From a virus, in IMG/VR virus record IMGVR_UViG_3300012944_000025, positions 1-64,000 of that record: a DNA stretch of 64,000 nucleotides; one strand, given 5' to 3'. Below the pieces are notes generated by a model that saw only the letters and a program-made list of their open reading frames with translations, did not search any database and had not been told where the DNA came from. The stretch's first letter is position 1, and the number at the start of each line of letters is the position of its first letter. Of this stretch, positions 1 through 16,709 are shown one piece after another. Made by a program: the position numbers and the translations under genes.

Positions 1-202
1 CCGAGGCGGTGGCGCTGTTCGAGCGCGCCCGGCCGTCGCTGTAGAAGTCGCATCTGCGTTGGATCTCCCCGTAGTTCGTCTTCGCGAGCCCGTGCGTGAT
101 GCCCGTGTTGACGACGACGCCACGGGGAAATACGCGGCCCTCGTCATCCTCCTCGTCGGGAAACGCGACCAGGCACGCCATGCAGTCCACGCGGCTATCC
201 AT
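1..202 (-). CDS. DCMxC zinc-finger family protein, CxxC-first form (truncated by the window edge; not in the ORF track)
   Basis: Manual translation MDSRVDCMACLVAFPDEEDDEGRVFPRGVVVNTGITHGLAKTNYGEIQRRCDFY... Confidence 0.8.
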   Translation of the reverse strand, partial: MDSRVDCMACLVAFPDEEDDEGRVFPRGVVVNTGITHGLAKTNYGEIQRRCDFYSDGRARSNSATAS

Positions 203-665
203 CGCGCTCCGCCTCCGCCTCGTGTTTCTCCCATTCCCGACGCTGCCAGGCAATATGCTCCTCCTGATAGACCAAGAATCTTCGTGCCTCGGGCAGAAAC
301 GTCATCGTCTCCTCGGTCGGCGATTCGAGCCCCTCAAGCAGGCGGACGAGCCGCCTGGACACACGATGGATCACTTCGCCCGTCGTTGAGACACGAAAGC
401 CGCGCATCTGAGGCTTCTTGACCTTCTTAACCCTCGGTTGTTTCGGCGGAGCCTCCGCTGCCAAGCGCTGTTCCTCCACGACGATGTCGTGGTTGGTCTT
501 CTTGAGTCGAGCCTTGTCATTTGCGACGTCTGCGAGATGGGCCTCGCGCCGGGACCACTCCGCTTTGTCGTGGCACTTGCCCCACGTTTTGGCCTCCGTT
601 GCTCTGATTTCCAGGCGTGCTTGTAGTTCAGCTCTGAGCGCCTTGAGTCGTTCAAACTCTTCCAT
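195..665 (-). CDS. Hypothetical coiled-coil protein
   Basis: MEEFERLKALRAELQ...; stop overlaps the next gene's start. Confidence 0.6.
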   Translation of the reverse strand: MEEFERLKALRAELQARLEIRATEAKTWGKCHDKAEWSRREAHLADVANDKARLKKTNHDIVVEEQRLAAEAPPKQPRVKKVKKPQMRGFRVSTTGEVIHRVSRRLVRLLEGLESPTEETMTFLPEARRFLVYQEEHIAWQRREWEKHEAEAERDG

Positions 666-683
666 CGGTGCTAGCCTCTCTCG

Positions 684-842
684 ATGATTGCCATCGTTCC
701 ACTTCTCGTCGCAGTCGTCGGCTTGCTCATCCACGCACTCGCGTCGAACACCAAGCTCGCGGAGGTCGGCCGCGCGCTCATGTGGTGCGGCATCCTGGTG
801 ACCTTGTGGGTCATGGCCGGCCGCACGGTGAAGGTGTTTTAG
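684..842 (+). CDS. Small two-TM membrane protein (52 aa; below ORF-track cutoff)
   Basis: Manual translation MIAIVPLLVAVVGLLIHALASNTKLAEVGRALMWCGILVTLWVMAGRTVKVF*. Confidence 0.65.
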   Translation: MIAIVPLLVAVVGLLIHALASNTKLAEVGRALMWCGILVTLWVMAGRTVKVF

Positions 843-1048
843 TCGCGCGCGATCGCCACCAGGCACGTCATGCAGTCGACGCGCCCTCCATGCCTAGGCG
901 CGCCTCGAACCCATCGCAGCATCAGTCCGATGTGCACCCAGTTCTCCGGCTCACAACCGAGCCGCGCGACATAGCTCCCCCCGCCCTCCTCGATAACCGC
1001 GTGGGTGACGTCGTTGGGCGTGGTGAGCGTCATGCCGTACCACGGCAT
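839..1048 (-). CDS. DCMxC zinc-finger family protein
   Basis: DVTHAV...LGC...VDCMTCLV. Confidence 0.8.
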   Translation of the reverse strand: MPWYGMTLTTPNDVTHAVIEEGGGSYVARLGCEPENWVHIGLMLRWVRGAPRHGGRVDCMTCLVAIARD

Positions 1049-1362
1049 CAGGACGGCGCCGCGCCGTTGACGAACAGGCGCCAGAGCAGCAGGGTGGTCG
1101 AGTCGACGAAGCCGTCGTGGAGTTTCTTGCCGAACACGTCTCTGGTGCACGTGTCGTCGATCTGGAACTCCATGTAGGCCTGGTCGCCATTGATAGCCAG
1201 GGCTGCGAAGCGGCCGTTGGGGCCGTCGACGCGGAACCCCGGACACAAGACGCCCGGCGGTTCGACCCACAACGAGCCGCGCGTGATGACGCAGTCATCG
1301 GGCAGGGTGTGGCGAGCCCAGCGCATCACGTCCTTCAGAGGCTTGGGCAGGTTGTTATTCAT
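1048..1362 (-). CDS. Hypothetical protein
   Basis: MNNNLPKPLKD...; stop overlaps the next start. Confidence 0.55.
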   Translation of the reverse strand: MNNNLPKPLKDVMRWARHTLPDDCVITRGSLWVEPPGVLCPGFRVDGPNGRFAALAINGDQAYMEFQIDDTCTRDVFGKKLHDGFVDSTTLLLWRLFVNGAAPS

Positions 1363-1378
1363 GTTTACCTCGTAAACT
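1362..1378. promoter_or_regulatory. 17-bp palindromic operator-like site
   Basis: TGTTTA-CCTCG-TAAACT, overlapping a start codon. Confidence 0.55.
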
Positions 1379-1453
1379 TGTTCTGATGCACCAGGCAGGT
1401 CATGTTTCTCCCCGCCGGGCATTCCCGAGGACTCCCTCGAAAGGTGCCCGGGG

Positions 1454-1654
1454 CTACCTGGGAACCCGCTTAGTCCCGTCCGCAACAAGCCACCCGAAGC
1501 CATCCCACGCGAGCGTACACAGGGTGACGTGCATCTCACCGGCGAGCCAAAGCAGCGTGGCATGTGTGGTTCCCCTGCTGTCTCGGTAGGCACCCTCGCA
1601 TGGTAGGCCTTGGGCCTCGCGAACCAAGCATGTCATGCAGTCGATGTCGCTCAT
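1454..1654 (-). CDS. DCMxC zinc-finger family protein, CxxC-first form
   Basis: MSDIDCMTCLV...GTTHA...TLC. Confidence 0.85.
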   Translation of the reverse strand: MSDIDCMTCLVREAQGLPCEGAYRDSRGTTHATLLWLAGEMHVTLCTLAWDGFGWLVADGTKRVPR

Positions 1655-1884
1655 CGGGGAACCGATCTGACCTCGTGGAGGGGTATCCCGCCTAGCCTCA
1701 CGTGCTGTGCGAGCGAGCAGGCCAGCACGCGAGCATCACGGTAGTCGACCGTGTAGTCCCCGACCTCCTGGCGCCGTATGATCAGGGTGCCATGCGTGAT
1801 GTGGTCGTAGTCCTGGTAGGTGGCGGAGCTGGGCATGCCCTGCCCCATTGCCACCAGGCAGGACATGCAGTCGACGTCGCTCAT
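1651..1884 (-). CDS. DCMxC zinc-finger family protein, CxxC-first form
   Basis: MSDVDCMSCLV...HITHG...LAC; ATGA overlaps at both ends. Confidence 0.85.
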   Translation of the reverse strand: MSDVDCMSCLVAMGQGMPSSATYQDYDHITHGTLIIRRQEVGDYTVDYRDARVLACSLAQHVRLGGIPLHEVRSVPR

Positions 1885-2078
1885 CGCGGTACCCAGGTCG
1901 CCCCTGCGGTGCTCCACAGCTCCCGGTTGCGAGAGTCCCGGCGCATGGTGCACGCGAGCGCCGCTCTCGTCGGCGTGCGTAGTGTGGCGTGGGTGATCCC
2001 GTCGTCCCCGCGGTGAGTGCCGCCGGCGGGTACGCCTCGGGACAGCGCCACCAGGCAGGCCATGCAGTCGACGGTCAT
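1881..2078 (-). CDS. DCMxC zinc-finger family protein, CxxC-first form
   Basis: MTVDCMACLV...GITHA...LAC. Confidence 0.85.
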   Translation of the reverse strand: MTVDCMACLVALSRGVPAGGTHRGDDGITHATLRTPTRAALACTMRRDSRNRELWSTAGATWVPR

Positions 2079-2281
2079 TACCGCACCAACACGACACACC
2101 GCGTTGTCCAACCGGTTTGACCGTTTAGCTCGTACGTTCGTAGGCTGCAGGTGATGAAGTGGCTGGCTGTCCATGAGACTGTAGATACCGCGTGCACGAT
2201 GCCACCTCTCGAAGTTGTTGAGACGGCCTCTGGTGCGCCACGTCCCAGGTTGACCAAGCACGTCATGCAGTCGATGGTCAT
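2078..2281 (-). CDS. DCMxC zinc-finger family protein, CxxC-first form
   Basis: MTIDCMTCLV...GIVHA...ITC. Confidence 0.85.
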   Translation of the reverse strand: MTIDCMTCLVNLGRGAPEAVSTTSRGGIVHAVSTVSWTASHFITCSLRTYELNGQTGWTTRCVVLVR

Positions 2282-2583
2282 GGTCCGTACCTCACGGGAA
2301 ACTTCATCGGCTTCTTGGCGAGCTTGCGGAAGGCCATCTTGAAGCGCGCCCAAGACACAGAGGGCCGCGGTGCCTGCCGTGGCCGCAGCCCGCGCATCGC
2401 GCGAATCACCGCGTCGTACCAGAACATGCGGAAGTTGATCTTCCGGTCGAATCGGCACGTCAGTCGTTCCTGGCCCAGCCAGTCCGCGTACGTTGCGTGC
2501 GTGATGGCGCCGAGGATGAGGACGGGGCCATCGGCGGCGCGCATTTGCGCCTCGGCCACCAGGCAGGCCATGCAGTCGATCAT
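2278..2583 (-). CDS. DCMxC zinc-finger family protein, CxxC-first form
   Basis: MIDCMACLV...AITHA...LTC plus a basic tail. Confidence 0.85.
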   Translation of the reverse strand: MIDCMACLVAEAQMRAADGPVLILGAITHATYADWLGQERLTCRFDRKINFRMFWYDAVIRAMRGLRPRQAPRPSVSWARFKMAFRKLAKKPMKFPVRYGP

Positions 2584-2804
2584 AGGCTAGCTCCCTTCCT
2601 CAACCGCCAGCGCAGGATTCTACCGCTCCCGCGGACGGGCTCGTATCGACACGCGGCCCGAATGATGCCGGGGCCCATCTCGTACATGGCTGCATGGCTG
2701 ACGCCCTTGTGCTTGATTCGATCGAGCATCACCGAGGTGTCGTAGTCGTCATCGAGCCCTCGCGCCAGGTTGACCAGGCACGTCATGCAGTCGACGTCCG
2801 TCAT
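2580..2804 (-). CDS. DCMxC zinc-finger family protein, CxxC-first form
   Basis: MTDVDCMTCLV...GVSHA...AAC. Confidence 0.85.
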   Translation of the reverse strand: MTDVDCMTCLVNLARGLDDDYDTSVMLDRIKHKGVSHAAMYEMGPGIIRAACRYEPVRGSGRILRWRLRKGASL

Positions 2805-3043
2805 TGGTCCCTCAAGGCCCAGTACGACAGATGGCCCTTAAAGAACATCCAGCGCACGGCAATCTTGCTCCACGCGAAGACGTGAGCCGGAAGGCCGACG
2901 AAGTTGTCGGGGTCGCCAGGCAGGACGCTGGCGGTCACGGCGAGAGTCACGGCGCAGATGACGTGCCCGTGCACCATGGTTCTGCCGTCGGTCGGGCAGC
3001 CGCTCGCGAGCTTGACGAGACAGGACATGCAGTCGACACTCAT
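2801..3043 (-). CDS. DCMxC family protein, ligand-swapped variant (CxxC..C..H)
   Basis: MSVDCMSCLVKLASGCPTDG...HVICAV...LPAHVF. Confidence 0.8.
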   Translation of the reverse strand: MSVDCMSCLVKLASGCPTDGRTMVHGHVICAVTLAVTASVLPGDPDNFVGLPAHVFAWSKIAVRWMFFKGHLSYWALRDQ

Positions 3044-3267
3044 GACCACACGCCGCCGCGGAGAACGAGCAGGTTTCGCCTTCCGTCTCTTGGAGATCCG
3101 CCCCAGCCCCCGCCTGCTCTCTTCATCCAACACGCCAACAGTCCCTTGTCCGCGTGGACGGTGAAGATCGCATGCGTGATTTGACCTTCGTCAGTGAGCC
3201 GCTCACCGGAGTCGTTGAGTCCCGTGGCAAGCGAGGTCAGGCACGTCATGCAGTCGACATCCGTCAC
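3040..3267 (-). CDS. DCMxC zinc-finger family protein, CxxC-first form
   Basis: GTG start; TDVDCMTCLT...QITHA...LAC. Confidence 0.8.
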   Translation of the reverse strand: MTDVDCMTCLTSLATGLNDSGERLTDEGQITHAIFTVHADKGLLACWMKRAGGGWGGSPRDGRRNLLVLRGGVWS

Positions 3268-3515
3268 TGATTCCTCCGGGCCTTGCGAGGCACCCAATGC
3301 TCGAAAGACATCCATTGACCCAGGGTATTGCTATACGTAAAGACGTGTGCGGGCAAGACAATCAGACTGTCCGAGTCGTGCTGTGTGTCGGTTAGAACCG
3401 TGGCGCATACGATCCGCCCACGCATCATCGAGCCGCCGTTGGTCGGGCAACCTCGAGCGAGCTTGACGAGGCAGGACATGCAGTCGATGCCGTTCGCTAG
3501 GCGGTTCTCGGCCAC
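3264..3515 (-). CDS. DCMxC family protein, ligand-swapped variant (paralog of 2801-3043)
   Basis: IDCMSCLVKLARGCPTNG...RIVCAT...LPAHVF; start approximate. Confidence 0.75.
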   Translation of the reverse strand: MAENRLANGIDCMSCLVKLARGCPTNGGSMMRGRIVCATVLTDTQHDSDSLIVLPAHVFTYSNTLGQWMSFEHWVPRKARRNQ

Positions 3516-4075
3516 GTCGGAAAGCCCTCGAGAATCTTGCCGTCCTGGCACAACACGATCCGGCTCTTGCCCTCGCCCCACCTGGACTGCATCAGGGCCC
3601 TCACGTCGTCAGGGAAGTCGTCGTATCGAGGCGGCGCGGACCAGTGATGCTTGAGCTTGGGCCGGTGAATCGCGACGCCACCATCGTCGAGCAGGTACAC
3701 GCGGTGCCCGAGCCCTGCGTGGTTCGCTGAGTCGCGGAGGAAGGCCTCGCTCGCCGGGGTGACGTGGCTGACCGAGACGCGGAAGTCCCCATACCTCTCC
3801 TCGCCCTTGGTCAACTCCTGATCCCTGTCGCTCATGCGACGCACGATCGAGCCCCACCGCCCGCCGAGTTCTCCCTTGGTCATCAGGTTGTTGACATGTC
3901 GAAGGCGATCTGTCTCGCCTGCACTCGACACGAAGGCCTTGAGCCAGGGTTTGATGCCCTCCGTGGGAACGGCTTCCAAGGTCTCGACTATCTTGGCCGC
4001 GACCTCGACGTCGGACGCCTCGCTGTTCAACAACAAGATCATGTCGTTCACGCTCTCGGTTTCGTTTTGCGTCAT
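3497..4075 (-). CDS. Hypothetical protein
   Basis: 192-aa ORF with upstream AAGGAG. Confidence 0.7.
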   Translation of the reverse strand: MTQNETESVNDMILLLNSEASDVEVAAKIVETLEAVPTEGIKPWLKAFVSSAGETDRLRHVNNLMTKGELGGRWGSIVRRMSDRDQELTKGEERYGDFRVSVSHVTPASEAFLRDSANHAGLGHRVYLLDDGGVAIHRPKLKHHWSAPPRYDDFPDDVRALMQSRWGEGKSRIVLCQDGKILEGFPTWPRTA

Positions 4076-4097
4076 GTCCGTGTCTCCTTGTCTGCGT

Positions 4098-4271
4098 CTA
4101 TTCTCGCGCCATCAGGACCAGGCAGGTCATGCAGTCGACGGGGGCGTTGGTCACCGTAAAGTGCAAGCGCACGCGGTCCTCAGGCGTCATTCGTAAGCCG
4201 CACAGAGTCGCCAACCACAGTACGTACGGGTTCTCGTGGTGAACGATTGTATCCAAGCTTAGATGCCTCAT
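4098..4271 (-). CDS. DCMxC zinc-finger family protein
   Basis: TIVHH...TLCG...VDCMTCLV. Confidence 0.8.
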   Translation of the reverse strand: MRHLSLDTIVHHENPYVLWLATLCGLRMTPEDRVRLHFTVTNAPVDCMTCLVLMARE

Positions 4272-4501
4272 TACAGCTCTGCCTCGCGGACCAGGCAGAT
4301 CATGCAGTCGACTGGACCCTCGGTCCTCCTGCTCCGAGGGTCTCCCTTGGGCACGAGGCCCTCTGCCTCGAGCGGATGCTCGCGCTCGACGAACCAGACC
4401 CGGCAGAGCGTGTGGGACATCCAAGCCGCCGTCCGATGCCTCTCGAGCCCCAGGACCATCTTGCGATGCGTGACGACGTCGCCGTCGATGACGACGTTCA
4501 C
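4271..4501 (-). CDS. DCMxC zinc-finger family protein
   Basis: VVTHR...TLCR...VDCMICLV. Confidence 0.8.
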   Translation of the reverse strand: MNVVIDGDVVTHRKMVLGLERHRTAAWMSHTLCRVWFVEREHPLEAEGLVPKGDPRSRRTEGPVDCMICLVREAEL

Positions 4502-4779
4502 GACCTCGCCTCCAGCACCAGGCAGGTCATGCAGTCGACCTCGACCTCGGTCGGCATCCCTTGCGGGAACGTCGGCGGGATCATGAGGTTGGGTACCCAG
4601 CGGATGCCGCACAGGGTGCGCGGCAGGCCCGTCCGGCCGTCGTGCCCGTGGGTGACCTCGCCGATCCGGACACGGAGCTTGCCCTGGCAGGCCAGGAGGA
4701 TTCGGTCGTAGGAGGGATCGAGGCCGGCGAGCTGGCGCTGCTGCTCCCGGATCTCCTGCAGCGTCGCCCGGCGCGTCAC
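4498..4779 (-). CDS. DCMxC zinc-finger family protein
   Basis: VRIGEVTHG...TLCG...VDCMTCLV. Confidence 0.8.
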   Translation of the reverse strand: MTRRATLQEIREQQRQLAGLDPSYDRILLACQGKLRVRIGEVTHGHDGRTGLPRTLCGIRWVPNLMIPPTFPQGMPTEVEVDCMTCLVLEARS

Positions 4780-5018
4780 GATCGCCCCGCTTTCACGAGA
4801 CACGACATGCAGTCGACGTCCCTCGACGTCCGCGTGGCCAGCTCGACGGGCCACAGCCTCCGGTGCTCCTTGTGCGTGTAGGAGATGCCGCATAGCGTCT
4901 GCGCCTTCACGTACCCGTTGTTGTACGCGTGGGTGATCACGCCGATGCGGACCTGGTTGCGGAACTTGCGGTGCTTGCGCAGCGGCACGCCGAGCGCGCG
5001 GACTCGCTCGTTCCTCAT
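4776..5018 (-). CDS. DCMxC zinc-finger family protein
   Basis: VRIGVITHA...TLCG...VDCMSCLV. Confidence 0.8.
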   Translation of the reverse strand: MRNERVRALGVPLRKHRKFRNQVRIGVITHAYNNGYVKAQTLCGISYTHKEHRRLWPVELATRTSRDVDCMSCLVKAGRS

Positions 5019-5299
5019 GGCACCGCCCACATGCACATGCGCATGGTGCACTCGATCATCTCGCCTTCCGACGCTCGAGACGTCCTGCGGATCGCGCAGC
5101 CCATGCAGTCCACGTCGTCGGTGGTCTCCACGGCCATGCTCCTCAGGGCACGGGCACCGCACTCGAACAGAGCCTCTTCAAACATCTCGCCGCGGCGCGT
5201 GTACTCCACCACGCGGTGAACCATAGCGTCCCCGGCCCTGACGGCGGGAGGATCGGCTGGCATCATGCTCCAGTAAATCTCGCTGCCGATAGGCTTCAT
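5015..5299 (-). CDS. DCMxC zinc-finger family protein
   Basis: AMVHR...FECG...VDCMGCAI. Confidence 0.8.
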   Translation of the reverse strand: MKPIGSEIYWSMMPADPPAVRAGDAMVHRVVEYTRRGEMFEEALFECGARALRSMAVETTDDVDCMGCAIRRTSRASEGEMIECTMRMCMWAVP

Positions 5300-5550
5300 A
5301 TGTTCGGTCCCTTCTTGATCGAGCCTACCAACGTGACGGCGGGCTCGCGCCCCTCGACGAAGAGCCACTCGGGCTTCACCAGGCAGGTCATGCAGTCGAC
5401 GTCTGCGTCGGATTGATGGCCCATTGGCCGGTCGCCCATGTCGCCGATCACGTACTGGCCGTTGCGAACGTACTGGATCCCGCATCGCGTGATCTGGCGC
5501 GTGCTGTACCGGGCGTGTGTGATGCCGGTGCTCGAGATGCAGACATTCAT
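5296..5550 (-). CDS. DCMxC zinc-finger family protein
   Basis: STGITHA...TRCG...VDCMTCLV. Confidence 0.85.
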   Translation of the reverse strand: MNVCISSTGITHARYSTRQITRCGIQYVRNGQYVIGDMGDRPMGHQSDADVDCMTCLVKPEWLFVEGREPAVTLVGSIKKGPNI

Positions 5551-5777
5551 GGCTCTCCCACCGAAATTAGGGTGTTGGTGTCGATGAATATGGCCCCTTT
5601 GCGCATCTCGTCGTTGCCTTCCCCGGACTGGAAGTCGCATAGCCGGTAGCACCCGCCACGCACGCGCCATCGCACGCGGTGGACGATGCCGGTGCCGGGG
5701 TCCCGCCAGCCGATGGGCGTGGTCACGCCGGTCACCAGGCAGGCCATGCAGTCGACGTCGACGGGCTTCGCGCTCAT
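5547..5777 (-). CDS. DCMxC zinc-finger family protein, CxxC-first form
   Basis: MSAKPVDVDCMACLV...GIVHR...RLCD. Confidence 0.8.
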   Translation of the reverse strand: MSAKPVDVDCMACLVTGVTTPIGWRDPGTGIVHRVRWRVRGGCYRLCDFQSGEGNDEMRKGAIFIDTNTLISVGEP

Positions 5778-5778
5778 G

Positions 5779-5810: not shown

Positions 5811-6218
5811 ATGTTCAACCAGGTGATGATCGAGGCCGTGGCCATTCAAATGCGCGAGCGCCTGGGCCTCGAACCCTGGGAGCCGTTCGCGGCCAGGGCC
5901 CGCGTCAGGCTCCGTGCGTACGGCAACCCCCTCGAGCGTGATCCGGATAGAGGCACCGGCAGGTCGACGCGGGAGGCGTTGCGAGCGCTGGCGGAGTGCC
6001 GGGTGCGAAGCATCGGGACCATTCATGCAATGGGCGATCGGCACGACTTCCGGCGCGTCCGCGACTTGGCCTTCGGTCTCAACCTGCTCGTCCGCGTCGT
6101 CAACGGCGATCCGGATCATCTTCGGGGAACAGCTGGAGGAGTCCTGGTTCACTGGGACCATCACGCGGCGAGCATGGAGCGGAAGAGGCGACTTCAATCT
6201 CCCCACACGGGTTGGTGA
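5811..6218 (+). CDS. Hypothetical protein (plus-strand insertion)
   Basis: 135-aa ORF diverging from an AT-rich junction; 3' end overlaps a minus-strand gene. Confidence 0.5.
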   Translation: MFNQVMIEAVAIQMRERLGLEPWEPFAARARVRLRAYGNPLERDPDRGTGRSTREALRALAECRVRSIGTIHAMGDRHDFRRVRDLAFGLNLLVRVVNGDPDHLRGTAGGVLVHWDHHAASMERKRRLQSPHTGW

Positions 6219-6441
6219 ACGCGAACGCGATGGGGTCCGGCCGGCGCGCCAGGCGAATCAGGCACGTCATGCAGTCGACAGGGTCGTCGACTACCTCGAC
6301 GATCTCCTTCGCGCGTCTGCTCGGGTCGTTCTTCCAGACGGTCCGAATACCGCAGGCGGTGTACGCGCGCAGCTCGTAGTTGAGGTCGACGTCGTTCGCG
6401 GAGTGCGTGAGGGCGTCGCCCATGAGGCGGACGTTGCTCAC
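6100..6441 (-). CDS. DCMxC zinc-finger family protein
   Basis: VRLMGDALTHS...YTACG...VDCMTCLI. Confidence 0.8.
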   Translation of the reverse strand: MSNVRLMGDALTHSANDVDLNYELRAYTACGIRTVWKNDPSRRAKEIVEVVDDPVDCMTCLIRLARRPDPIAFAFTNPCGEIEVASSAPCSPRDGPSEPGLLQLFPEDDPDRR

Positions 6442-6447: not shown

Positions 6448-6627
6448 TCACGACCGCCATTGGCGAGCCAGCCACAGCGCATCCACGATAGGCCACGCGA
6501 ACGCGAATACGGCGACTTCCTCAGGGTCATGGAAACGTTTACGCACGTGCCGGATGACGCCGATCGCAGCCAGATGAATGAGAGCGATCAAGCAATAGAC
6601 TACGCCGATGGCGGATTCTAGGTTCAT
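6448..6627 (-). CDS. Small membrane protein
   Basis: MNLESAIGVVYCLIALIHLAAIGVI...; two hydrophobic segments. Confidence 0.55.
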   Translation of the reverse strand: MNLESAIGVVYCLIALIHLAAIGVIRHVRKRFHDPEEVAVFAFAWPIVDALWLARQWRS

Positions 6628-8635: not shown

Positions 8636-8639
8636 CGAG

Positions 8640-9703: not shown

Positions 9704-9720
9704 AGTTTACCGCGTAATCA
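9704..9720. promoter_or_regulatory. 17-bp palindromic operator-like site
   Basis: AGTTTA-CCGCG-TAATCA in an AT-rich gap. Confidence 0.5.
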
Positions 9721-12012: not shown

Positions 12013-12230
12013 AACCTATTCAACCCGACGAGACATCCCATGCAATCGACCTTAGAAAGCCTTCGCTTGCTGGTGTTCCGCCACGGCACGTCCGTCTCCG
12101 CGTGGCACAGCGTAATAACGTGCCCGATCACCGGGCAGTTGGGTGTCGCTCGACACTCTTCACAGAACGCGCGCACCGCGTGCGTGATCCCGTGGAACTT
12201 CAATAGCCGGATTTCGCCTATAATGTTCAT
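12000..12230 (-). CDS. DCMxC zinc-finger family protein (RLLK-HG subfamily)
   Basis: RLLKFHGITHAV...TLCH...DVPW...VDCMGCLV. Confidence 0.8.
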   Translation of the reverse strand: MNIIGEIRLLKFHGITHAVRAFCEECRATPNCPVIGHVITLCHAETDVPWRNTSKRRLSKVDCMGCLVGLNRLCAG

Positions 12231-12487
12231 AATTTGCTCAGGCGAACCTGGCACCCCATGCAGTTGACCTGGGTCTCCCGGAATCGTTTCGTGTGCTGCC
12301 ATGGCAGATTCGTCCTCCATCGACACAGGGTCTCGGTGATCCTGATCGGGTTGTTCACGTCCATGAAGTCAGGCACTGTTCGCCAGACGGCGTGCGTGAC
12401 CCCGCCGTGCTTCATCAGGCGCATGATGGCGACGCCTCTCTCGAGCACGAGCGGAGAGCCGTTCACGTAGGTTATGGACGTGACCAC
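12227..12487 (-). CDS. DCMxC zinc-finger family protein (RLLK-HG subfamily)
   Basis: RLMKHGGVTHAV...TLCR...NLPW...VNCMGCQV. Confidence 0.8.
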   Translation of the reverse strand: MVTSITYVNGSPLVLERGVAIMRLMKHGGVTHAVWRTVPDFMDVNNPIRITETLCRWRTNLPWQHTKRFRETQVNCMGCQVRLSKL

Positions 12488-12490
12488 GGC

Positions 12491-12772
12491 CTACAACCGT
12501 CCCATCGCGACGAGGCAGCCTATGCAGTCGATCCTTGAGGGTTTGAATCGACTCGTACGGGACCACGGGACGTCGGACTCCCCTCGGCATGCCGTCACCG
12601 TCTTGGCTGCCGCCTCGGGCACCGGCGGACAGCACGCGACTACGTGAGTGACGCCGTGGTCCTTCAGCAGGCGAAGGGGAATCCGCTGGCCGCGGAGGAT
12701 GACCGCGTCGCCCGCGAGGTATCGGTTCTTGGCTAATCCGTGAGACTGGCTGCGCGGTGGCAGCGGTCTCAT
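12491..12772 (-). CDS. DCMxC zinc-finger family protein (RLLK-HG subfamily)
   Basis: RLLKDHGVTHVV...TACR...DVPW...IDCIGCLV. Confidence 0.8.
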   Translation of the reverse strand: MRPLPPRSQSHGLAKNRYLAGDAVILRGQRIPLRLLKDHGVTHVVACCPPVPEAAAKTVTACRGESDVPWSRTSRFKPSRIDCIGCLVAMGRL

Positions 12773-13107
12773 GCCCACGGCGAGACCACAACGGGCGACG
12801 GGGTGGGCTGCCGTGGATCGCCGATCGACACCTCGACCCAGACCTCGCGCAGGTAGAGGCGCTCCCTCGCCGGCGCGCCGGGTTTCGCATCGTCGTACTC
12901 GACGCGCTTCTCGAACACCCAGCCGGCCTGCTCTCGGCCTCCGCCGGGCTTGTCGCGCCACATCGAGCGCACGCGGCCGAACTCCTTGGTCATGCTCTTG
13001 AGCAAGGGTCGAAGCTCGTTGTCGGCGAACTTGGTCTCGAACCAGCCGACCTCGCTGTAGCGGATCCCCTTGGTCATGTTGACGTAGTTCTCTTTGATCC
13101 AGAGCAT
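12769..13107 (-). CDS. Hypothetical protein
   Basis: 112-aa ORF, GGAGG upstream. Confidence 0.65.
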   Translation of the reverse strand: MLWIKENYVNMTKGIRYSEVGWFETKFADNELRPLLKSMTKEFGRVRSMWRDKPGGGREQAGWVFEKRVEYDDAKPGAPARERLYLREVWVEVSIGDPRQPTPSPVVVSPWA

Positions 13108-13367
13108 CAGGTCTCCTCCTTCCAGTCTCGCATCGCAACGAGACGCGCCATGCAGTCGATGTCGACGTCCCCTGCGTGCTCCCGTTCGTGCAGCATGTGC
13201 GGCCCGTCGGGTCGGTTGGTCACGCGATGCCAGAAACGCAGCGACGAGCTGGAGTCTTCGTAGGTCAGCTGGTATTGCCTGAACTCAATGCCGCACGCGG
13301 TTCTCGCAACAGAGAATTCGACGTGTGAGAAGGCGTGGACGATGCCCTCGCCCACCAGCCGCCTCAC
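13107..13367 (-). CDS. DCMxC family protein lacking the last Cys (IDCMARLV)
   Basis: GIVHA...TACG...IDCMARLV; codon CGT is one change from TGT. Confidence 0.75.
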   Translation of the reverse strand: MRRLVGEGIVHAFSHVEFSVARTACGIEFRQYQLTYEDSSSSLRFWHRVTNRPDGPHMLHEREHAGDVDIDCMARLVAMRDWKEET

Positions 13368-13606
13368 GTCGAGTCTCGGACGATGCAGGTCATGCAGCTG
13401 ACGTCGGCGACGTGCCCAAGCACGATCATCTTGCGAGTCCCGCCATACGGAGCTTCAGCCGCGATCAGCAAGCCTTCCGAGGTGTAGCGCTGCCACTGGT
13501 TCTTGGGCGTCGCGAACTCGTAGCCGCAGTGGGTCTGTCCGATCCACTCGCCGTACGTCCAGTTCGCCGAGTGAACCACACCAGAAGCCTCCGTCAGCCG
13601 CAGCAA
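13364..13606 (-). CDS. DCMxC zinc-finger family protein
   Basis: GVVHS...THCG...VSCMTCIV; start approximate. Confidence 0.75.
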   Translation of the reverse strand: MLRLTEASGVVHSANWTYGEWIGQTHCGYEFATPKNQWQRYTSEGLLIAAEAPYGGTRKMIVLGHVADVSCMTCIVRDST

Positions 13607-14103
13607 GCCGCCGCCTCCGCTTCCAGCTCGACCGCGGCCTGGACCAGCTCGCGGGTCTCCTGAGGGACCTTGGCCCACTGCGCAGGCGTCAGGTTTGCGG
13701 TGTCGGCCAGGAGGGAGCCGAGCCACTGCTGCAGCTCCTTGGTCCATGCCCTCCAGTCGACCCCGGCGCCAACCGGCTGAGCTTTGCGGTCCTTCTCGTT
13801 CAGCATCTCGACGGAGGTCTTCGGTGCTGACGACCAGTCTTGAGGGGTCACGACAGCCGCCAGCCGCCAGCCACGGCCTCCGATGTACTTGACGGTTCCG
13901 GCCCGCTTCAGTCGCGTCATCACGCGGCCCACCATGATGTAAGCCCGCGTCTTGGACAGACCTCTCACCTTGGCCGTGTTAACGACGTGGTCGACGATGT
14001 CCTGAAGCTTGACGTTCGTGCCCTTCGGTGCGGCAGCCAACTTCTTCAGGGCGTGCTCTTCGACCATCTTGTTGACGTATTGATTCACGTTCTTCTTGCT
14101 CAT
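13594..14103 (-). CDS. Putative winged-helix DNA-binding protein
   Basis: LQDIVDHV...VGRVMTRLKRAGTVKYIGGRGWRL resembles a wHTH recognition helix and wing. Confidence 0.5.
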   Translation of the reverse strand: MSKKNVNQYVNKMVEEHALKKLAAAPKGTNVKLQDIVDHVVNTAKVRGLSKTRAYIMVGRVMTRLKRAGTVKYIGGRGWRLAAVVTPQDWSSAPKTSVEMLNEKDRKAQPVGAGVDWRAWTKELQQWLGSLLADTANLTPAQWAKVPQETRELVQAAVELEAEAAACCG

Positions 14104-14390
14104 CAGCTTGGGTCCTTCCACGTTGGTCTCGCCGCGTACGTCAGGCACGACATGCAGTTGACGTCCACGCCGGGCGTCCGCTTCCACGGCAGGTTGTCAT
14201 CCATCGTCCAGCACAGGCGGTACAGCTCCTCGTAGCCTGCCTGGTTCCTCGTAACCGCCATCCAGTGGATCATGCCGTCCACGCCCTCGTACCCCGCGGC
14301 GGTGAAGCCGAGCAGCTGGGTGTCGAGCCGGCTCCACCACTTGTTGACCTCGTCGTCGGTCGCGGGGACATCGACCTCGTCGAAGCTCAC
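14103..14390 (-). CDS. DCMxC zinc-finger family protein
   Basis: GMIHW...RLCW...VNCMSCLT. Confidence 0.8.
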   Translation of the reverse strand: MSFDEVDVPATDDEVNKWWSRLDTQLLGFTAAGYEGVDGMIHWMAVTRNQAGYEELYRLCWTMDDNLPWKRTPGVDVNCMSCLTYAARPTWKDPS

Positions 14391-14697: not shown

Positions 14698-14916
14698 TCA
14701 CGATTCCCTCGAATTCCGGGCTTCGGCGACCAGGCACGCCATGCAGTCGACGTCCTTGCCGGAGCCCTCGGTGAACATTTTCATGATCGCGTCGAGCGTT
14801 CGCTCGAACACGATGAGCCCGCAGGCCATTCCTGCGGTACCATCCCCGGAACTTAGACCCGCGCAGTGTGTAATTCCGTCGACGAGGAGCGTCACACGCT
14901 TATCGATCGCGCTCAC
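14698..14916 (-). CDS. DCMxC zinc-finger family protein
   Basis: GITHC...MACG...VDCMACLV. Confidence 0.85.
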   Translation of the reverse strand: MSAIDKRVTLLVDGITHCAGLSSGDGTAGMACGLIVFERTLDAIMKMFTEGSGKDVDCMACLVAEARNSRES

Positions 14917-15137
14917 GACGCCCGCCGGACCCGGCAGGTCATGCAGTTGACCTCGAACCCGGGCGTCACCACCGGACGTTCTCCGTCGCTGTCAGGGTCG
15001 CCGTCGCCGTACTTCATGCCCGCGTAGGTCCAGGACCCAAACTTTAGACCACAGGCCGTGTCGAGGCGGAACGCGCTCCCGCCCCAAAGAGACTCTGGCT
15101 GGCCGTGCGAGATGCCGTCGGAAGTCACGATGATCAC
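14913..15137 (-). CDS. DCMxC zinc-finger family protein
   Basis: GISHG...TACG...VNCMTCRV. Confidence 0.85.
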   Translation of the reverse strand: MIIVTSDGISHGQPESLWGGSAFRLDTACGLKFGSWTYAGMKYGDGDPDSDGERPVVTPGFEVNCMTCRVRRAS

Positions 15138-15146
15138 GCCGACTCC

Positions 15147-15407
15147 TTACCTGCCATACAGGAACTCCTTGGGCATCCCAAGCGCGGCTGCCATTCTTTC
15201 CTCGATGGACGGCCGGTTGGCACGTACCAGGCATGTCATGCAGTCGACGTCGTATCCCAATCCCGTGTTCCGAGAGCCCGGCGGATAGGGGATGCTGATG
15301 CCGCACAACGTCCAGGACGGAGCGACGTCGTTCACGAGGTGAACCACCAGACCGTCGTAGCTCTTCCAAGCCTCTAGGTCACGCGCGCTCATCGAGGTCC
15401 TGATCAT
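15147..15407 (-). CDS. DCMxC zinc-finger family protein
   Basis: LVVHL...TLCG...VDCMTCLV. Confidence 0.85.
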   Translation of the reverse strand: MIRTSMSARDLEAWKSYDGLVVHLVNDVAPSWTLCGISIPYPPGSRNTGLGYDVDCMTCLVRANRPSIEERMAAALGMPKEFLYGR

Positions 15408-15615
15408 ACCGCTCGTGGTTGACCAGGCACGCCATGCAGTTGACGTCCGCCTCGGTCTCGTAGGCGCCTTCGGCCTCGACCCACACTCCGCACGCGGCCA
15501 CGACTATCTGCTCGCCCTCGTCGTTCTCCGCGTCGCCCAGCCAGCACGCGTGCGTCAGCGGACAGGGTGGCCACAGCCGCATGTCGATGGCCTGGCCTCG
15601 CGCGATCGGGGTCAT
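15379..15615 (-). CDS. DCMxC zinc-finger family protein
   Basis: PLTHA...AACG...VNCMACLV. Confidence 0.85.
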   Translation of the reverse strand: MTPIARGQAIDMRLWPPCPLTHACWLGDAENDEGEQIVVAACGVWVEAEGAYETEADVNCMACLVNHERYDQDLDERA

Positions 15616-15806
15616 TGGCGGGCCTCGTGAACGAGGCAGGTCATGCAATCAATCACCGCGTCGTCCGAGGCGTACTCGGCCGTACGACGCCAGTCAACGC
15701 CGCACGCCGTGAAGCTCGCAAAGCCGCCGGTGGTCATCTGCGTGACGACGTGAACCATGCCGTCGCGGGTGCGAACCGGCTGGCCTCTTCCGCCAATCAG
15801 GTACAT
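15612..15806 (-). CDS. DCMxC zinc-finger family protein
   Basis: GMVHV...TACG...IDCMTCLV; AGGAG upstream. Confidence 0.85.
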   Translation of the reverse strand: MYLIGGRGQPVRTRDGMVHVVTQMTTGGFASFTACGVDWRRTAEYASDDAVIDCMTCLVHEARQ

Positions 15807-16024
15807 GTGATTCTCCTAGTTTTGCAGGAATCTCTCCAGCACGCGCGCGAGCCACGCGCGAATGACAGGCGGCGTCAGCTCGACGGTGACGTCTCGCTCC
15901 TTGCTGGTGGCGAACCCGGCCGTTGAATCCCCGTGGGTAGAAAGCCAGATGCGCCACCCCGCGTGCTCGCCGACGATCACGTCGGCCTCCCTGTGCCACG
16001 TTCGACAGCCCAGATACGCCGCGA

Positions 16025-16288
16025 TCAAGCTGTCCCGCTCTCCGGCGGTGACCCTTCGGTGCATGCCTCATCATAGGTCGGAAGCTTGACAAGGCAGGAC
16101 ATGCAGTCGACGAGGGCCTCGGTCTCGGCCTCAGCCATGCGGCGGGACCAGTACGAGGAGATCATGAGCGGATTGCCCCGTCGCACGGTCCAGAAGCGGA
16201 TGTCGCAGGCTGTGCACCCCGCGAGTTCGTGACTGGGCTCGAGTACCACCGCGTGGGTGACCCCATGAAAATCTTCGACCGCGTTCAT
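16025..16288 (-). CDS. DCMxC zinc-finger family protein
   Basis: GVTHA...TACD...VDCMSCLV. Confidence 0.85.
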   Translation of the reverse strand: MNAVEDFHGVTHAVVLEPSHELAGCTACDIRFWTVRRGNPLMISSYWSRRMAEAETEALVDCMSCLVKLPTYDEACTEGSPPESGTA

Positions 16289-16512
16289 TGCCGGGCCTCG
16301 CGAACCAAGCACGTCATGCAGTCGACCTGCATGTCGACCTCGTCCATTGGAACCGTCCCTGACCACGAGCAGGAATCGGGACCTCGCACGCCGTAGTAGA
16401 AGTTCTTCACGCACAGGGTCTGGCCTGGAAGCCCACCCTCGCGCGTGGAGAACGTTGTGGGCGGGGTCCGGGCCCGATGTGTGATGCCGAGCAGGTCTTT
16501 TACGGCTGCCAC
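16285..16512 (-). CDS. DCMxC zinc-finger family protein
   Basis: GITHR...TLCV...VDCMTCLV. Confidence 0.8.
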   Translation of the reverse strand: MAAVKDLLGITHRARTPPTTFSTREGGLPGQTLCVKNFYYGVRGPDSCSWSGTVPMDEVDMQVDCMTCLVREARQ

Positions 16513-16709
16513 GTTCTTGCCTTCGCCACAAGGCACGACATGCAGTCGACCGCTGGCACGCCCGCTATGCCCATGCCGATTTCGTAGATCTCCGCCAGCC
16601 CGCAAGGCTGCCCGCAGCTCGCGATTACGCTGCTGTTCATCCACTGGAGGGCCGTGTGCGTGATACCGTTCAGTGTGGCCCGGACGACGTTGTAGCCTCG
16701 CGTCGTCAC
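16500..16709 (-). CDS. DCMxC zinc-finger family protein
   Basis: GITHT...ASCG...VDCMSCLV. Confidence 0.85.
   Translation of the reverse strand: MTTRGYNVVRATLNGITHTALQWMNSSVIASCGQPCGLAEIYEIGMGIAGVPAVDCMSCLVAKARTWQP

What the first reader, a model, noticed from the sequence alone, without database searches (positions are those of the whole stretch)
1..16709. Large array of hypervariable DCMxC zinc-finger mini-genes (~59 copies in the window, ~46 in the first 16.6 kb)
Seen: nearly every small minus-strand gene here encodes a 55-110 aa protein with the scaffold G(I/V)xH...(T/A)xC(G)...(V/I)DCM(T/S/A/G)CL(V), while the sequence between these anchors is almost unrelated. Genes are head-to-tail, mostly coupled by ATGA/GTGA/TAATG overlaps, with motifs often 200-250 bp apart. 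The array runs off the left edge, and about 13 more copies are scattered out to 52 kb. Established: one His plus three Cys is a Zn-ligand set (compare the small HC3-type fingers of actinobacteria and their phages), and phage early regions hold host-takeover and anti-defence genes. Inference: a constant metal-binding scaffold displaying variable loops, i.e. a phage-encoded repertoire of binders (anti-defence, host-protein or nucleic-acid binding). I know of no described phage family expanded to this copy number.
Basis: partly seen in the sequence, partly recalled or inferred. Interest (0 to 1): 0.92.

Follow-up and report, generated by a model that had tools for sequence, protein, structure and literature searches.

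The report
Phage multigene family of His-Cys3 mini-proteins
An uncultured large phage gives about a fifth of this contig to nearly 60 very diverged copies of one tiny, unnamed, probably zinc-binding protein, which is one of the largest gene families seen in a phage, and its function is untested.

Summary
The window holds 57 genes plus 1 remnant of one family; 45 of the genes lie in 1-16709. All are on the minus strand, and 50 of 57 starts overlap the upstream stop. One more copy lies outside the window. The CMxC motif occurs 58 times on the minus strand and 0 times on the plus strand, against 0.84 expected by chance. His, Cys and CxxC are invariant or nearly so; the rest is 18-44% identical. 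The genes look real: GC3 is 0.81, and omega against a close relative is 0.35-0.60. AlphaFold gives a confident small beta-sheet plus C-terminal helix (pLDDT 87). Twelve copies are circularly permuted.

The contig is about half of a roughly 190 kb phage genome. Four of five relatives examined carry 18-60 copies, each lineage with its own motif dialect. No Pfam, PHROG, PDB or BFVD match is significant. The nearest families are zf-HC3 and DUF3039, which share the ligand order, but homology is not shown.

A published analogue exists: about 35 zinc-ribbon copies in Bacillus phage G. It is unrelated by sequence.

Metal binding and function are inferred, not shown. My best reading is a repertoire of metal-stapled binders for host takeover or anti-defence. 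This scan found the same family before in seven other windows from related phages.

The parts
1..253 (-). family gene, permuted order (DCMAC, then GITH, then C); its 3' end runs off the window
   Evidence: profile E 5.2e-8 in two swapped pieces
839..1048 (-). family gene, canonical, 69 aa
   Evidence: E 1.1e-13
1454..1654 (-). family gene, permuted, 66 aa
   Evidence: E 2.4e-8, profile 46-59 then 3-31
1651..1884 (-). family gene, permuted, 77 aa
   Evidence: weak profile E 0.013; motif plus later His and Cys
1881..2078 (-). family gene, permuted, 65 aa (the copy folded)
   Evidence: E 6.5e-7
2078..2281 (-). family gene, permuted, 67 aa
   Evidence: E 5.4e-8
2278..2583 (-). family gene, permuted, 101 aa with a C-terminal tail
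   Evidence: E 5.6e-5
2580..2804 (-). family gene, permuted, 74 aa
   Evidence: E 1.6e-9
2801..3043 (-). family gene, permuted, with Cys where the others have His (VICA) and His near the usual distal Cys
   Evidence: E 5.2e-6; closest paralog 3264-3551 at 46%
3040..3267 (-). family gene, permuted, 75 aa
   Evidence: E 1.8e-8
3264..3551 (-). family gene, permuted, Cys-for-His variant; start uncertain
   Evidence: E 2.4e-5
4098..4271 (-). family gene, canonical, 57 aa; the only copy that touches Pfam zf-HC3 (15.7 bits, below the cut-off)
   Evidence: (E 3e-16)
4271..4501 (-). family gene, canonical, 76 aa
   Evidence: E 4e-17
4498..4779 (-). family gene, canonical, 93 aa; ortholog in G1 is 70% identical
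4776..5018 (-). family gene, canonical, 80 aa; ortholog in G1 is 72% identical
5015..5299 (-). family gene, canonical, 94 aa
   Evidence: E 8.1e-13
5296..5550 (-). family gene, canonical, 84 aa
   Evidence: E 2.1e-16
5547..5777 (-). family gene, permuted, 76 aa; no family gene directly upstream; ortholog in G1 is 71% identical
6100..6441 (-). family gene, canonical with a 53-aa tail
   Evidence: E 1.2e-18
6624..6956 (-). family gene, canonical (SCMTC) with a tail
   Evidence: E 1.6e-12
7228..7554 (-). family gene, canonical with a tail
   Evidence: E 9.7e-12
7551..7808 (-). family gene, canonical, 85 aa
   Evidence: E 2.3e-13
7805..8029 (-). family gene, canonical (TCMTC), 74 aa
   Evidence: E 2e-14
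8399..8722 (-). family gene, canonical (TCMTC); start uncertain
   Evidence: E 2.4e-15
8640..9083 (-). family gene with two tandem domains, 147 aa
   Evidence: two full-length profile matches, E 2.3e-19
9058..9675 (-). family gene with about three domains; the last two carry NCVPC and NCPDC instead of DCMxC; start at 9675 (TTG) or 9582 (GTG)
   Evidence: E 6.6e-9; only the first domain is significant
9718..9915 (-). family gene, canonical (TCMTC), 65 aa
9912..10124 (-). family gene, canonical (TCMAC), 70 aa
10121..10333 (-). family gene, canonical, 70 aa
10330..10539 (-). family gene, canonical (SCMVC), 69 aa
11480..11662 (-). family gene, canonical, 60 aa
12000..12230 (-). family gene, canonical; one of three adjacent close paralogs
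12227..12466 (-). family gene, canonical (NCMGC)
12491..12772 (-). family gene, canonical (DCIGC variant)
13107..13367 (-). family gene, canonical, but the last Cys is replaced (DCMAR)
   Evidence: E 2.5e-14
13364..13606 (-). family gene, canonical (SCMTC)
14103..14390 (-). family gene, canonical (NCMSC) with an N-terminal extension
14698..14916 (-). family gene, canonical, 72 aa
14913..15137 (-). family gene, canonical (NCMTC), 74 aa
15147..15407 (-). family gene, canonical with a tail
15379..15615 (-). family gene, canonical (NCMAC)
15612..15806 (-). family gene, canonical, 64 aa; folded; relatives 55-95% identical on other contigs
16025..16288 (-). family gene, canonical with a tail
16285..16536 (-). 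family gene, canonical; start uncertain
16500..16709 (-). first gene of the dense array, canonical; its GTG start overlaps the stop of the AAA+ ATPase gene
16706..18061 (-). context: AAA+ ATPase gene directly upstream of the array and translationally coupled to it
   Evidence: Pfam AAA E 2e-15; distant phage relatives only
23757..24002 (-). scattered family gene, canonical; start uncertain (23975, 24002 or 24272)
   Evidence: E 4.9e-16
26020..26625 (-). 201-aa protein with one family domain in the middle; conserved at about 201 aa in relatives
28080..28370 (-). scattered family gene with a Cys-rich tail
28367..28606 (-). scattered family gene, canonical
30032..30148 (-). 38-codon remnant that keeps only the DCMTCLV end of the domain
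   Evidence: profile 47-58 only, E 3.1e-4
30236..30628 (-). scattered family gene with a 56-aa tail
32000..32245 (-). scattered family gene (TCMAC)
32245..32484 (-). scattered family gene with a tail
32481..33044 (-). 187-aa protein with a C-terminal family domain
33041..33307 (-). scattered family gene with a Cys-rich N-terminal part
34701..35093 (-). scattered family gene followed by a second CxxC-containing tail
37287..37502 (-). scattered family gene, canonical
51783..52007 (-). outlying family gene (NCMTC); low GC3 (0.50)
   Evidence: E 2.8e-10

Best explanation
This is a phage multigene family. About 58 genes on this half-genome contig encode very diverged versions of one ~55-residue domain, and the whole ~190 kb genome probably holds about 67.

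In the predicted fold, one His sits on a beta-strand, one Cys follows the next strand, and a CxxC caps a C-terminal helix. Together they most likely hold one metal ion, probably Zn(II), which staples a small beta-sheet to the helix.

The family grew by local tandem duplication in long, co-directional, translationally coupled operons. It then varied further by domain concatenation and by a shift of gene boundaries that produced circularly permuted copies (CxxC first, then His, then Cys). Each copy has since been kept by selection while its loops and tails diverged.

The most likely job is a repertoire of small, metal-stabilised binding modules made during infection, each aimed at a different host target (takeover or counter-defence).

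Shown here: the family, its anchors, coding signatures, the predicted fold, tandem origin, fast but constrained evolution, and clade-wide distribution.

Inferred: metal binding, time of expression, and the binder or anti-defence role.
For: Family and anchors:
- 57 genes in the window and 58 on the contig.
- His, Cys and the first Cys of CxxC are invariant in 45 of 45 canonical domains. His and all three Cys are invariant in 144 of 144 metagenomic relatives.

Coding and constraint:
- GC3 is 0.81 against GC2 0.51.
- Four syntenic orthologs in the close relative G1 have omega 0.35-0.60 at dS 0.37-0.61. The median for 39 other genes is 0.15.
- Over 20 reciprocal-best pairs, scaffold omega is 0.16 and loop omega is 0.42.

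Fold:
- AlphaFold2 gives pLDDT 87.1 and pTM 0.69.
- His lies on strand 10-16, Cys27 follows strand 22-25, and CxxC at 46-49 leads into helix 47-55.

Ligand role:
- Two permuted paralogs carry Cys at the His column and His near the distal Cys column.
- The position before the first Cys of CxxC takes only D, N, S or T. I recall these as the classical helix N-cap residues.

Tandem origin:
- The best paralog is the adjacent gene in 12 of 58 cases. Random expectation is 2.0, with a maximum of 8 in 2000 draws.
- It lies within two genes in 22 of 58 cases, against 4.0 expected.

Diverse surfaces:
- pI runs from 4.1 to 11.5, with 18 acidic, 16 near-neutral and 24 basic copies.
- Tails of 20-60 aa are variable.

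Fast turnover:
- Core genes are 82-93% identical at the DNA level between G0 and G1. The array shares only one 526-bp stretch at 70%.
- Family dN is 4-8 times the core median.
- G0 has 9 consecutive permuted genes where G1 has about 2-3.

Clade-wide:
- 18-60 copies in 4 of 5 relatives examined. Reversed and shuffled controls gave 0 hits among 12,279 ORFs.

Operon layout:
- 50 of 57 starts are coupled.
- Promoter-like and terminator-like sites are not enriched: 2 against 2.5 expected, and 7 against 9.7.
Against: - No experiment or transcript supports expression or metal binding.
- No member matches a known anti-defence or host-takeover protein.
- The 10 interspersed non-family genes I tested are also unknown: 0 PHROG hits, and one sub-threshold Pfam hit.
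- Omega is below 1 in the loops as well (0.42), so there is no signature of an ongoing arms race. dS near 1.3 makes this estimate rough.
- 24 of 58 copies are basic (pI above 8), which would also suit nucleic-acid binding. The authors of the one published analogue (phage G) proposed transcription factors or structural DNA-binding proteins.
- The 'early' timing is a guess from position on the long leftward non-structural arm.
- The host is unknown.
- The fold has no significant match in PDB or BFVD, so function cannot be read from structure.
- The permuted model is of low confidence (pLDDT 64.5).
Confidence: 0.45

Rival explanations
1. The copies are nucleic-acid-binding zinc fingers. They would be a large set of phage transcription factors, or structural or architectural DNA- or RNA-binding proteins. 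The variable loops would read different sequences, or the proteins would coat nucleic acid.
For: Iyer et al. 2021 proposed this reading for the ~35-copy zinc-ribbon expansion of Bacillus phage G (passage read). 24 of 58 copies have pI above 8. The consensus has an Arg a few residues after CxxC on the helix. Small zinc fingers often bind nucleic acids; this is general knowledge and was not tested here.
Against: 18 of 58 copies are acidic (pI 4.1-5.7) and 16 are near neutral, which is hard to reconcile with one shared nucleic-acid-binding mode. No HTH or other DNA-binding domain is fused in any of the 17 longer relatives. About 60 specific regulators would be far more than a ~190 kb genome appears to need (inference). 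There is no structural match to known DNA-binding fingers.
Confidence: 0.2
2. The His-Cys3 site holds an iron-sulfur cluster or a redox-active site and not structural zinc. The family would then act in redox sensing or redox chemistry, as 3Cys-1His [2Fe-2S] proteins do.
For: From general knowledge, a 3Cys-1His set can ligate Fe-S clusters as well as Zn. Sequence alone cannot tell the metal. All ligands are invariant.
Against: The ligand spacing and the CxxC at a helix N-terminus are typical of structural zinc sites (general knowledge). There is no match to CDGSH or Wbl-type motifs in Pfam: 0 such hits in 45 plus 144 members. One copy has lost the last Cys (DCMAR, 13107-13367) yet still looks like a normal gene. 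About 60 redox proteins with unrelated surfaces has no obvious rationale (inference).
Confidence: 0.1
3. The copies are virion-associated proteins: internal or ejected proteins, or decoration proteins made late and packaged. They would not be intracellular early proteins.
For: One permuted copy sits between two baseplate-region genes on the structural strand (genome 68753-68992 plus strand). From memory, some large phages inject sets of small internal proteins.
Against: 57 of 58 copies lie on the opposite strand from the structural block (55-72 kb, plus strand). They sit in the arm that holds helicase, RNase HII, ThyX-domain and AAA+ genes. No signal or propeptide-like shared N-terminus is seen in the alignments.
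Confidence: 0.07
4. The array is largely non-functional: repeated or selfish ORFs, or over-called frames in high-GC DNA.
For: There is no expression data. The genes are small and several starts are uncertain. One remnant (30032-30148) and one copy lacking the last Cys show that decay does occur.
Against: GC3 is the highest codon position in 56 of 58 genes. Omega is below 1 in orthologs at dS 0.4-1.3. The four ligands are invariant across 144 of 144 relatives from other contigs. Translational coupling holds in 50 of 57 genes. There are 0 motif hits on the opposite strand.
Confidence: 0.03

Closest known systems
Zinc-ribbon expansion of Bacillus phage G (about 35 copies, e.g. gp32 YP_009015343.1; Iyer et al. 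2021, Viruses 13:63, PMC7824862; I read the passage in section 3.4.3 and did not see its supplement S1.4)
   Same: A lineage-specific expansion of a small Cys-rich, presumably zinc-binding protein to tens of copies in one large phage genome. Its function is also untested.
   Different: The sequence and ligand set are unrelated. gp32 has a C4 ribbon (CPxCG...CPHGC) followed by a helical part. Our profile finds 0 matches in the whole 497,513-bp phage G record. Here the copy number is higher (58 on half a genome; 60 in a complete 188 kb relative) in a genome about 2.6 times smaller. The copies are mostly in tight tandem operons, some are circularly permuted, and the expansion is shared by a whole clade.
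Pfam zf-HC3 (PF16827), an uncharacterised short His-Cys3 zinc-finger family
   Same: The ligand order is the same (His, Cys, CxxC) and the size is similar. In the ESM Atlas, the nearest structure cluster to the 64-aa member is a 78-aa Actinomycetota cluster of which 23% carry zf-HC3 (TM 0.62 by query, 0.53 by that row).
   Different: No member reaches the 25-bit cut-off. The best hit in this genome is 15.7 bits. Only 2 of 45 window domains and 1 of 144 relatives hit at all, with E 0.006-0.013. I found no report of zf-HC3 as a multi-copy phage family: the single paper listed mentions it once, for an archaeal domain (passage read).
Pfam DUF3039 (PF11238), a conserved actinobacterial protein of unknown function
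   Same: It has an H...ALCGK...CPxC pattern: His, then a Cys-Gly, then CxxC near the C-terminus, in the same order as GITH...TxCG...DCMxC. DUF3039 proteins themselves give sub-threshold zf-HC3 scores of 18-20 bits.
   Different: Profile-profile comparison of our 45 domains with 7 DUF3039 proteins gives probability 1.4% and E 0.036 over 26 columns, so homology is not shown. The DUF3039 proteins are highly conserved (54-93% identical among the 7) and were seen once per genome in the 10 genomes with a hit. Ours are about 60 per genome and 18-44% identical.
Multigene families of large eukaryotic DNA viruses (for example African swine fever virus MGF families, poxvirus ankyrin and host-range families); recalled from memory, not tested here
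   Same: Tens of diverged paralogs in tandem blocks, with copy-number differences between close relatives. In those viruses they are generally linked to host interaction.
   Different: Those have other folds and other hosts, and the comparison is one of evolutionary pattern only. No comparable single family at about a fifth of all genes turned up for a phage in my literature searches.

Membership tests
Pfam zf-HC3 (PF16827) | Score at or above the curated gathering cut-off (25 bits) of the Pfam model | tested here: not met
   Own genome: 1 match, 15.7 bits, E 0.0015. 2 of 45 window domains (best E 0.0058) and 1 of 144 relatives (E 0.013) give sub-threshold hits. None is over the cut-off.
Pfam zf-HC3 (PF16827) | His-Cys3 ligand set in the order H, C, CxxC within about 60 residues | tested here: met
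   His, Cys and the first Cys of CxxC are invariant, and the second Cys is at 90% or more, in 45 domains. All four are invariant in 144 relatives.
Pfam zf-HC3 (PF16827) | Shared three-dimensional fold | tested here: inconclusive
   Atlas structure neighbour with 23% zf-HC3 members has TM 0.62/0.53 over 58 residues, using the Atlas's own model at pLDDT 0.64. I had no solved or predicted zf-HC3 structure to compare directly.
Pfam DUF3039 (PF11238) | Significant sequence or profile similarity to DUF3039 proteins | tested here: not met
   hhalign of A1 against 7 DUF3039 proteins (each Pfam E 1e-28 to 1e-32) gives probability 1.4%, E 0.036, 26 columns. There are 0 DUF3039 hits among the 45 plus 144 members scanned.
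Phage G zinc-ribbon expansion (Iyer et al. 2021) | Sequence relationship to gp32-type C4 zinc ribbons | tested here: not met
   The profile of our family finds 0 matches at E up to 0.1 in the whole phage G record. gp32 has CPxCG...CPHGC and no His ligand at the matching place.
Treble-clef or zinc-ribbon folds in solved structures | Significant structural match of the confident model to a solved zinc finger | tested here: inconclusive
PHROGs viral protein families | Significant match to any PHROG | tested here: not met
   10 full-length members: best E 0.0067, each to a different PHROG of unknown function. 45 domains: 10 different PHROGs hit by 1 member each, best E 0.01.

The most novel reading that the evidence does not exclude
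The array is a phage-encoded library of metal-stapled mini-binders, in which each paralog neutralises a different host defence or takeover target.

New specificities would arise by three routes: tandem duplication, concatenation of domains, and register shifts of gene boundaries that create circular permutants.

Within any one genome the CxxC helix has a nearly uniform 'dialect': DCMxC here, TCLxC or TCFxC in G2 and G4, and TCVxC or TCAxC in G3. In this reading, that uniformity exists because all copies must dock to one shared partner that co-evolves with them. The AAA+ ATPase encoded directly upstream and coupled to the array is one candidate, and a loading or processing factor is another.
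Probability: 0.12. Interest if true: 0.88.

Novelty: new variant of a known kind. Interest (0 to 1): 0.66.

Why it matters
If this reading is right, a whole clade of uncultured ~160-190 kb phages spends about a fifth of its genes on one undescribed, 55-residue metal-stapled scaffold with diversified surfaces.

That would be a natural mini-binder library and a rich source of new host-takeover or counter-defence proteins.

It is also a clean natural case of circular permutation arising inside a tandem gene array.

Finally, it raises an open evolutionary puzzle. Tens of otherwise saturated paralogs share a lineage-specific motif dialect. This points either to separate founder expansions in each lineage or to a shared partner or concerted evolution.

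The scaffold is small, predicted with confidence and tolerant of loop variation, so it could also interest protein engineers.

Tried and rejected
Searches and tests that gave nothing useful:
- Pfam, PHROGs, PDB sequences, Foldseek against PDB, VIA-align wide and BFVD gave no significant match. The BFVD top rows were three unnamed viral proteins at E 0.37-0.81, TM 0.50-0.63.
- Cultured or deposited phages: blastn of 16001-24000 and of 52414-59253 found nothing. tblastn of two members found only chance-level hits, E 0.7-1. The nearest terminases are 28% identical.
- Cellular genomes: P0005 gave no relative. A degenerate DNA pattern for VDCMxCLV gave 7 single hits, and 0 of 7 match more than the motif itself.
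- Fusions: 17 longer relatives of 171-212 aa, none with a Pfam domain.
- Neighbouring non-family genes: 10 tested, 0 PHROG hits, and one sub-threshold Pfam hit (DUF5983, 24 bits against a cut-off of 27).
D is GAC in 38 of 43 against 0.84 (p 0.32). The second Cys is TGC in 49 of 54 against 0.89 (p 0.45). Only the first Cys is more uniform, 54 of 54 (p 0.002). Synonymous variety at V and L is large. So I see no sign of recent conversion. This does not exclude old events.
- Independent versus ancient expansion: with the motif removed, best hits fall in the own genome only slightly more often than expected (G0 39% against 27%, G3 50% against 35%). On a FastTree tree of 170 domains and 51 columns, the lineage label changes 64 times, against 79.8 +/- 3.6 for shuffled labels. 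The sequences are saturated, so the question stays open.
- Expression: no RNA holder is listed. Two DNA runs labelled soil metagenome hold small shares (0.10 and 0.06) that I did not lay, so I draw nothing on habitat or expression from them.
- The Atlas search with a permuted copy gave a low-confidence model (pLDDT 0.59) and mixed neighbours, so it was uninformative.
- zf-HC3 in 201 genomes of the class of a Microbacterium genome: 0 over the cut-off, 10 sub-threshold. The first try at E 1e-5 found none in 121 genomes because my threshold was too strict.
- The two ~1,200-aa proteins have no relatives among solved structures.
- Supplements are closed. Supplement S1.4 of Iyer et al. 2021, which lists the phage G copies, was not seen.

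Full report
WHAT THE DNA IS

The window is the first 64,000 bases of a single 89,580-bp contig with 64.8% G+C. It is a tailed-phage genome. Outside the window there are matches to a large terminase (PHROG E 1.2e-42), a baseplate wedge protein, a peptidase/endolysin-type protein, a ribonucleotide reductase and a PolIII-alpha-like DNA polymerase that is cut by the contig end. Inside the window there are an AAA+ ATPase, a DinG-type helicase, RNase HII and a ThyX-domain protein. No tRNA gene is found in the window. CheckV rates the contig 48% complete.

The closest relative in IMG/VR is G1 (156,126 bp), whose terminase is 96% identical. It is collinear with contig positions 41.7-89.6 kb at 82-93% DNA identity. 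Ortholog positions show that G1 starts at about 6 kb of our contig and runs on past our left edge. A more distant relative, G3, is a complete 187,862-bp record whose ends overlap by 89 bp. The full genome is therefore about 190 kb, and the window shows about a third of it.

No deposited phage is close. blastn finds nothing, and the best terminase match among 50,697 records is 28% identical.

CHECK OF THE OBSERVATION

The pentapeptide xCMxC occurs 58 times in minus-strand frames and never in plus-strand frames. Shuffled windows give 0.84 on average and at most 4.

After gene modelling the window holds 57 family genes and one 38-codon remnant. 45 genes lie in 1-16709, where they fill 69% of the DNA. 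Twelve more lie between 23.7 and 52.0 kb. One further copy lies at 68753-68992 on the plus strand, outside the window. The family takes 17.8% of the contig.

Other numbers:
- 50 of 57 starts overlap or abut the upstream stop.
- Lengths are 57-201 aa, median 80.
- 30 of 45 motif spacings in the dense array are 170-310 bp.

An alignment of 45 canonical domains has an invariant His, middle Cys and first Cys of CxxC. Met and the second Cys are nearly invariant. Identity to the first row is only 18-44%.

ARE THEY REAL GENES?

- GC at codon positions 1, 2 and 3 is 0.59, 0.51 and 0.81. GC3 is the highest position in 56 of 58 genes.
- Against G1, 39 non-family orthologs have median identity 91%, dN 0.047, dS 0.41 and omega 0.15. 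The four syntenic family orthologs are 56-72% identical, with dN 0.19-0.37, dS 0.37-0.61 and omega 0.35-0.60.
- Pooling 20 reciprocal-best pairs (7 G0-G1, 13 G2-G4), the scaffold codons around the ligands give omega 0.16 (70% identity). All other codons give omega 0.42 (44% identity), at dS about 1.3.

So the copies are coding and individually constrained. Their loops change about 2.5 times faster than the scaffold, and there is no net positive selection. 'Hypervariable' is better read as 'old and deeply diverged'. The closest full-length pair of paralogs within the contig is 46% identical.

ANATOMY

AlphaFold2 on the 45-row alignment gives a confident model with pLDDT 87.1 and pTM 0.69; the five models ranged from 64 to 87. 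It shows three to four short strands and a C-terminal helix. The His is on strand 10-16, Cys27 comes just after strand 22-25, and CxxC at 46-49 leads into helix 47-55. I could not read coordinates, so the ligand distances were not measured.

Twelve copies have the halves in the other order: the motif sits 2-10 codons after the start, followed by GITH and then Cys. These are nine consecutive genes at 1454-3551, plus 1-253, 5547-5777 and the plus-strand copy. They were left out of the profile. Even so, 10 of 12 match it in two pieces in swapped order, with profile positions ~45-60 first and ~3-31 afterwards. The second pieces are individually weak, with E from 0.025 to 70. Their own alignment shows the His and Cys columns after the motif in 10 of 12.

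Three of the permuted copies have no family gene directly upstream that could supply the missing half. Relatives from other contigs hold a permuted and a canonical domain in one polypeptide, for example P0065 and P0079. The permuted form therefore looks like a unit of its own. Its model is of low confidence (pLDDT 64.5), but its secondary structure has the expected helix-first order.

Two permuted paralogs (2801-3043 and 3264-3551) carry Cys at the His column and a His near the distal Cys column. That fits these positions being metal ligands.

Other variants are a two-domain gene (8640-9083), a gene of about three domains with NCVPC and NCPDC motifs (9058-9675), one copy that has lost the last Cys (13107-13367), and one remnant (30032-30148).

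ORIGIN AND SPREAD

The best paralog is the adjacent gene in 12 of 58 cases, where 2.0 is expected, and lies within two genes in 22 of 58, where 4.0 is expected. This points to growth by local tandem duplication.

A profile search of 1.84 billion cluster representatives finds 444 clusters at E up to 0.001, 9 at 1e-10 or better, and none at 1e-30. A word-indexed search finds 62 proteins, none with a Pfam domain or a name beyond 'hypothetical protein'. They lie on contigs of up to 192 kb.

Using the terminase I fetched 18 related IMG/VR loci and read five whole records. An iterated profile finds:
- 48-55 ORFs in our contig;
- 18-19 in G1, whose contig begins inside the array and lacks the counterpart of our 6-41.7 kb;
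- 20 in G2;
- 55-60 in the complete G3;
- 24-27 in G4;
- 0 in G5, whose terminase is only 45% identical.

Reversed and shuffled controls give 0 hits among 12,279 ORFs. G1 has 9 copies beyond our left edge. If our phage is like G1 there, its full genome would hold about 67 copies; this is an inference.

Each lineage has its own motif dialect: DCMxC in G0 and G1, TCLxC or TCFxC in G2 and G4, and TCVxC or TCAxC in G3. With the motif removed, similarity no longer sorts the copies clearly by lineage, and codon choice shows no recent conversion. I cannot tell separate founder expansions from an old array with a shared constraint on that helix. This remains unexplained.

COMPARISON WITH WHAT IS KNOWN

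Pfam zf-HC3 (PF16827) is the only named family that any member touches. All scores are below the cut-off: 15.7 bits in this genome, 2 of 45 domains and 1 of 144 relatives. The ESM Atlas puts a 78-aa Actinomycetota cluster, 23% zf-HC3, nearest in structure.

While collecting zf-HC3 proteins from 201 actinobacterial genomes I found only sub-threshold hits. The three of these that I scanned are DUF3039 proteins, with Pfam E 1e-28 to 1e-32, and seven were aligned. They share the H...CG...CxxC order. However, the profile-profile test gives probability 1.4%. So the ligand order is the same, but homology is not shown.

In the literature, Iyer et al. [quoted passage not shown] Its example, gp32, is a C4 ribbon, and our profile finds nothing in phage G. 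My other searches found no description of this family or of a larger single-family expansion in a phage. These searches cover open-access text only.

This scan has met the same family before in seven other windows of related uncultured phages. Those notes agree with what I tested here.

HOW IT MOST LIKELY WORKS

Shown: one small domain, four invariant potential ligands placed where a sheet meets a helix, tandem growth, constrained but fast divergence of everything else, very different charges (pI 4.1-11.5), variable tails, gene turnover between close relatives, and long coupled operons without enriched promoter or terminator signals.

Inferred: a metal ion, probably zinc, staples the fold so that almost any loop sequence is tolerated. 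The copies then act as a repertoire of small binders against different host targets during infection.

Rivals are nucleic-acid binding (24 of 58 copies are basic; proposed for phage G), an Fe-S or redox site, virion proteins, and non-function. The coding and constraint signatures argue against non-function.

The interspersed genes tested (10) and the longer relatives (17 proteins, no known domain) give no functional clue.

VERDICT

This is a real, clade-wide and unusually large phage multigene family built on an undescribed His-Cys3 scaffold, with circular permutants. In kind it resembles the phage G zinc-ribbon expansion, but it is unrelated to it and denser. Its function and its metal are untested.

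Noticed in passing
window 684-842 (+): A 52-aa hydrophobic ORF sits on the opposite strand inside the array (GC3 0.87). It is 96% identical to its counterpart in relative G1 (dN 0.018, omega 0.08), far more conserved than the family genes around it. It may be a small membrane protein.
   Followed up: partly
window 39215-39231 and 54499-54515: The 17-bp palindrome TGYTYA-N5-TRARCA noted by earlier readers matches exactly twice in the window, against 0.02 expected in 100 shuffles. One site lies in the divergent gap between the helicase gene and the structural block.
   Followed up: partly
window 55639-59253 (+) and genome 60574-64194 (+): Two adjacent proteins of about 1,200 aa (GC3 0.92 and 0.87) have no family match. 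The first gave 0 Pfam families and the second 0 PHROG families, and neither matches a PDB sequence. They are 93-94% identical in G1.
   Followed up: partly
locus L021 (G1) 903-1601 (+): In the close relative, one family domain is preceded by a long Gly/Asn/Asp/Tyr-rich low-complexity repeat (GNGDGYG-like). This form is not seen in our contig.
   Followed up: no
window 16706-18061 (-): The AAA+ ATPase gene (Pfam AAA E 2e-15) has its nearest deposited relatives in Brevundimonas jumbo phages at about 32% identity. Its stop overlaps the start of the first array gene.
   Followed up: partly
window 6-41.7 kb versus G1: The relative's 156-kb contig ends on both sides of this 35-kb stretch, and our contig ends inside the array as well. 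Assemblies of this clade seem to break in or near the family arrays.
   Followed up: partly
window 21287-22720 (-) and 41756-42526 (-): A 477-aa protein has a PEP-utilising mobile domain (E 2.1e-9), and a 256-aa protein matches Pfam GP88 (E 4.3e-15). Both are unusual accessory genes that I did not examine further.
   Followed up: no
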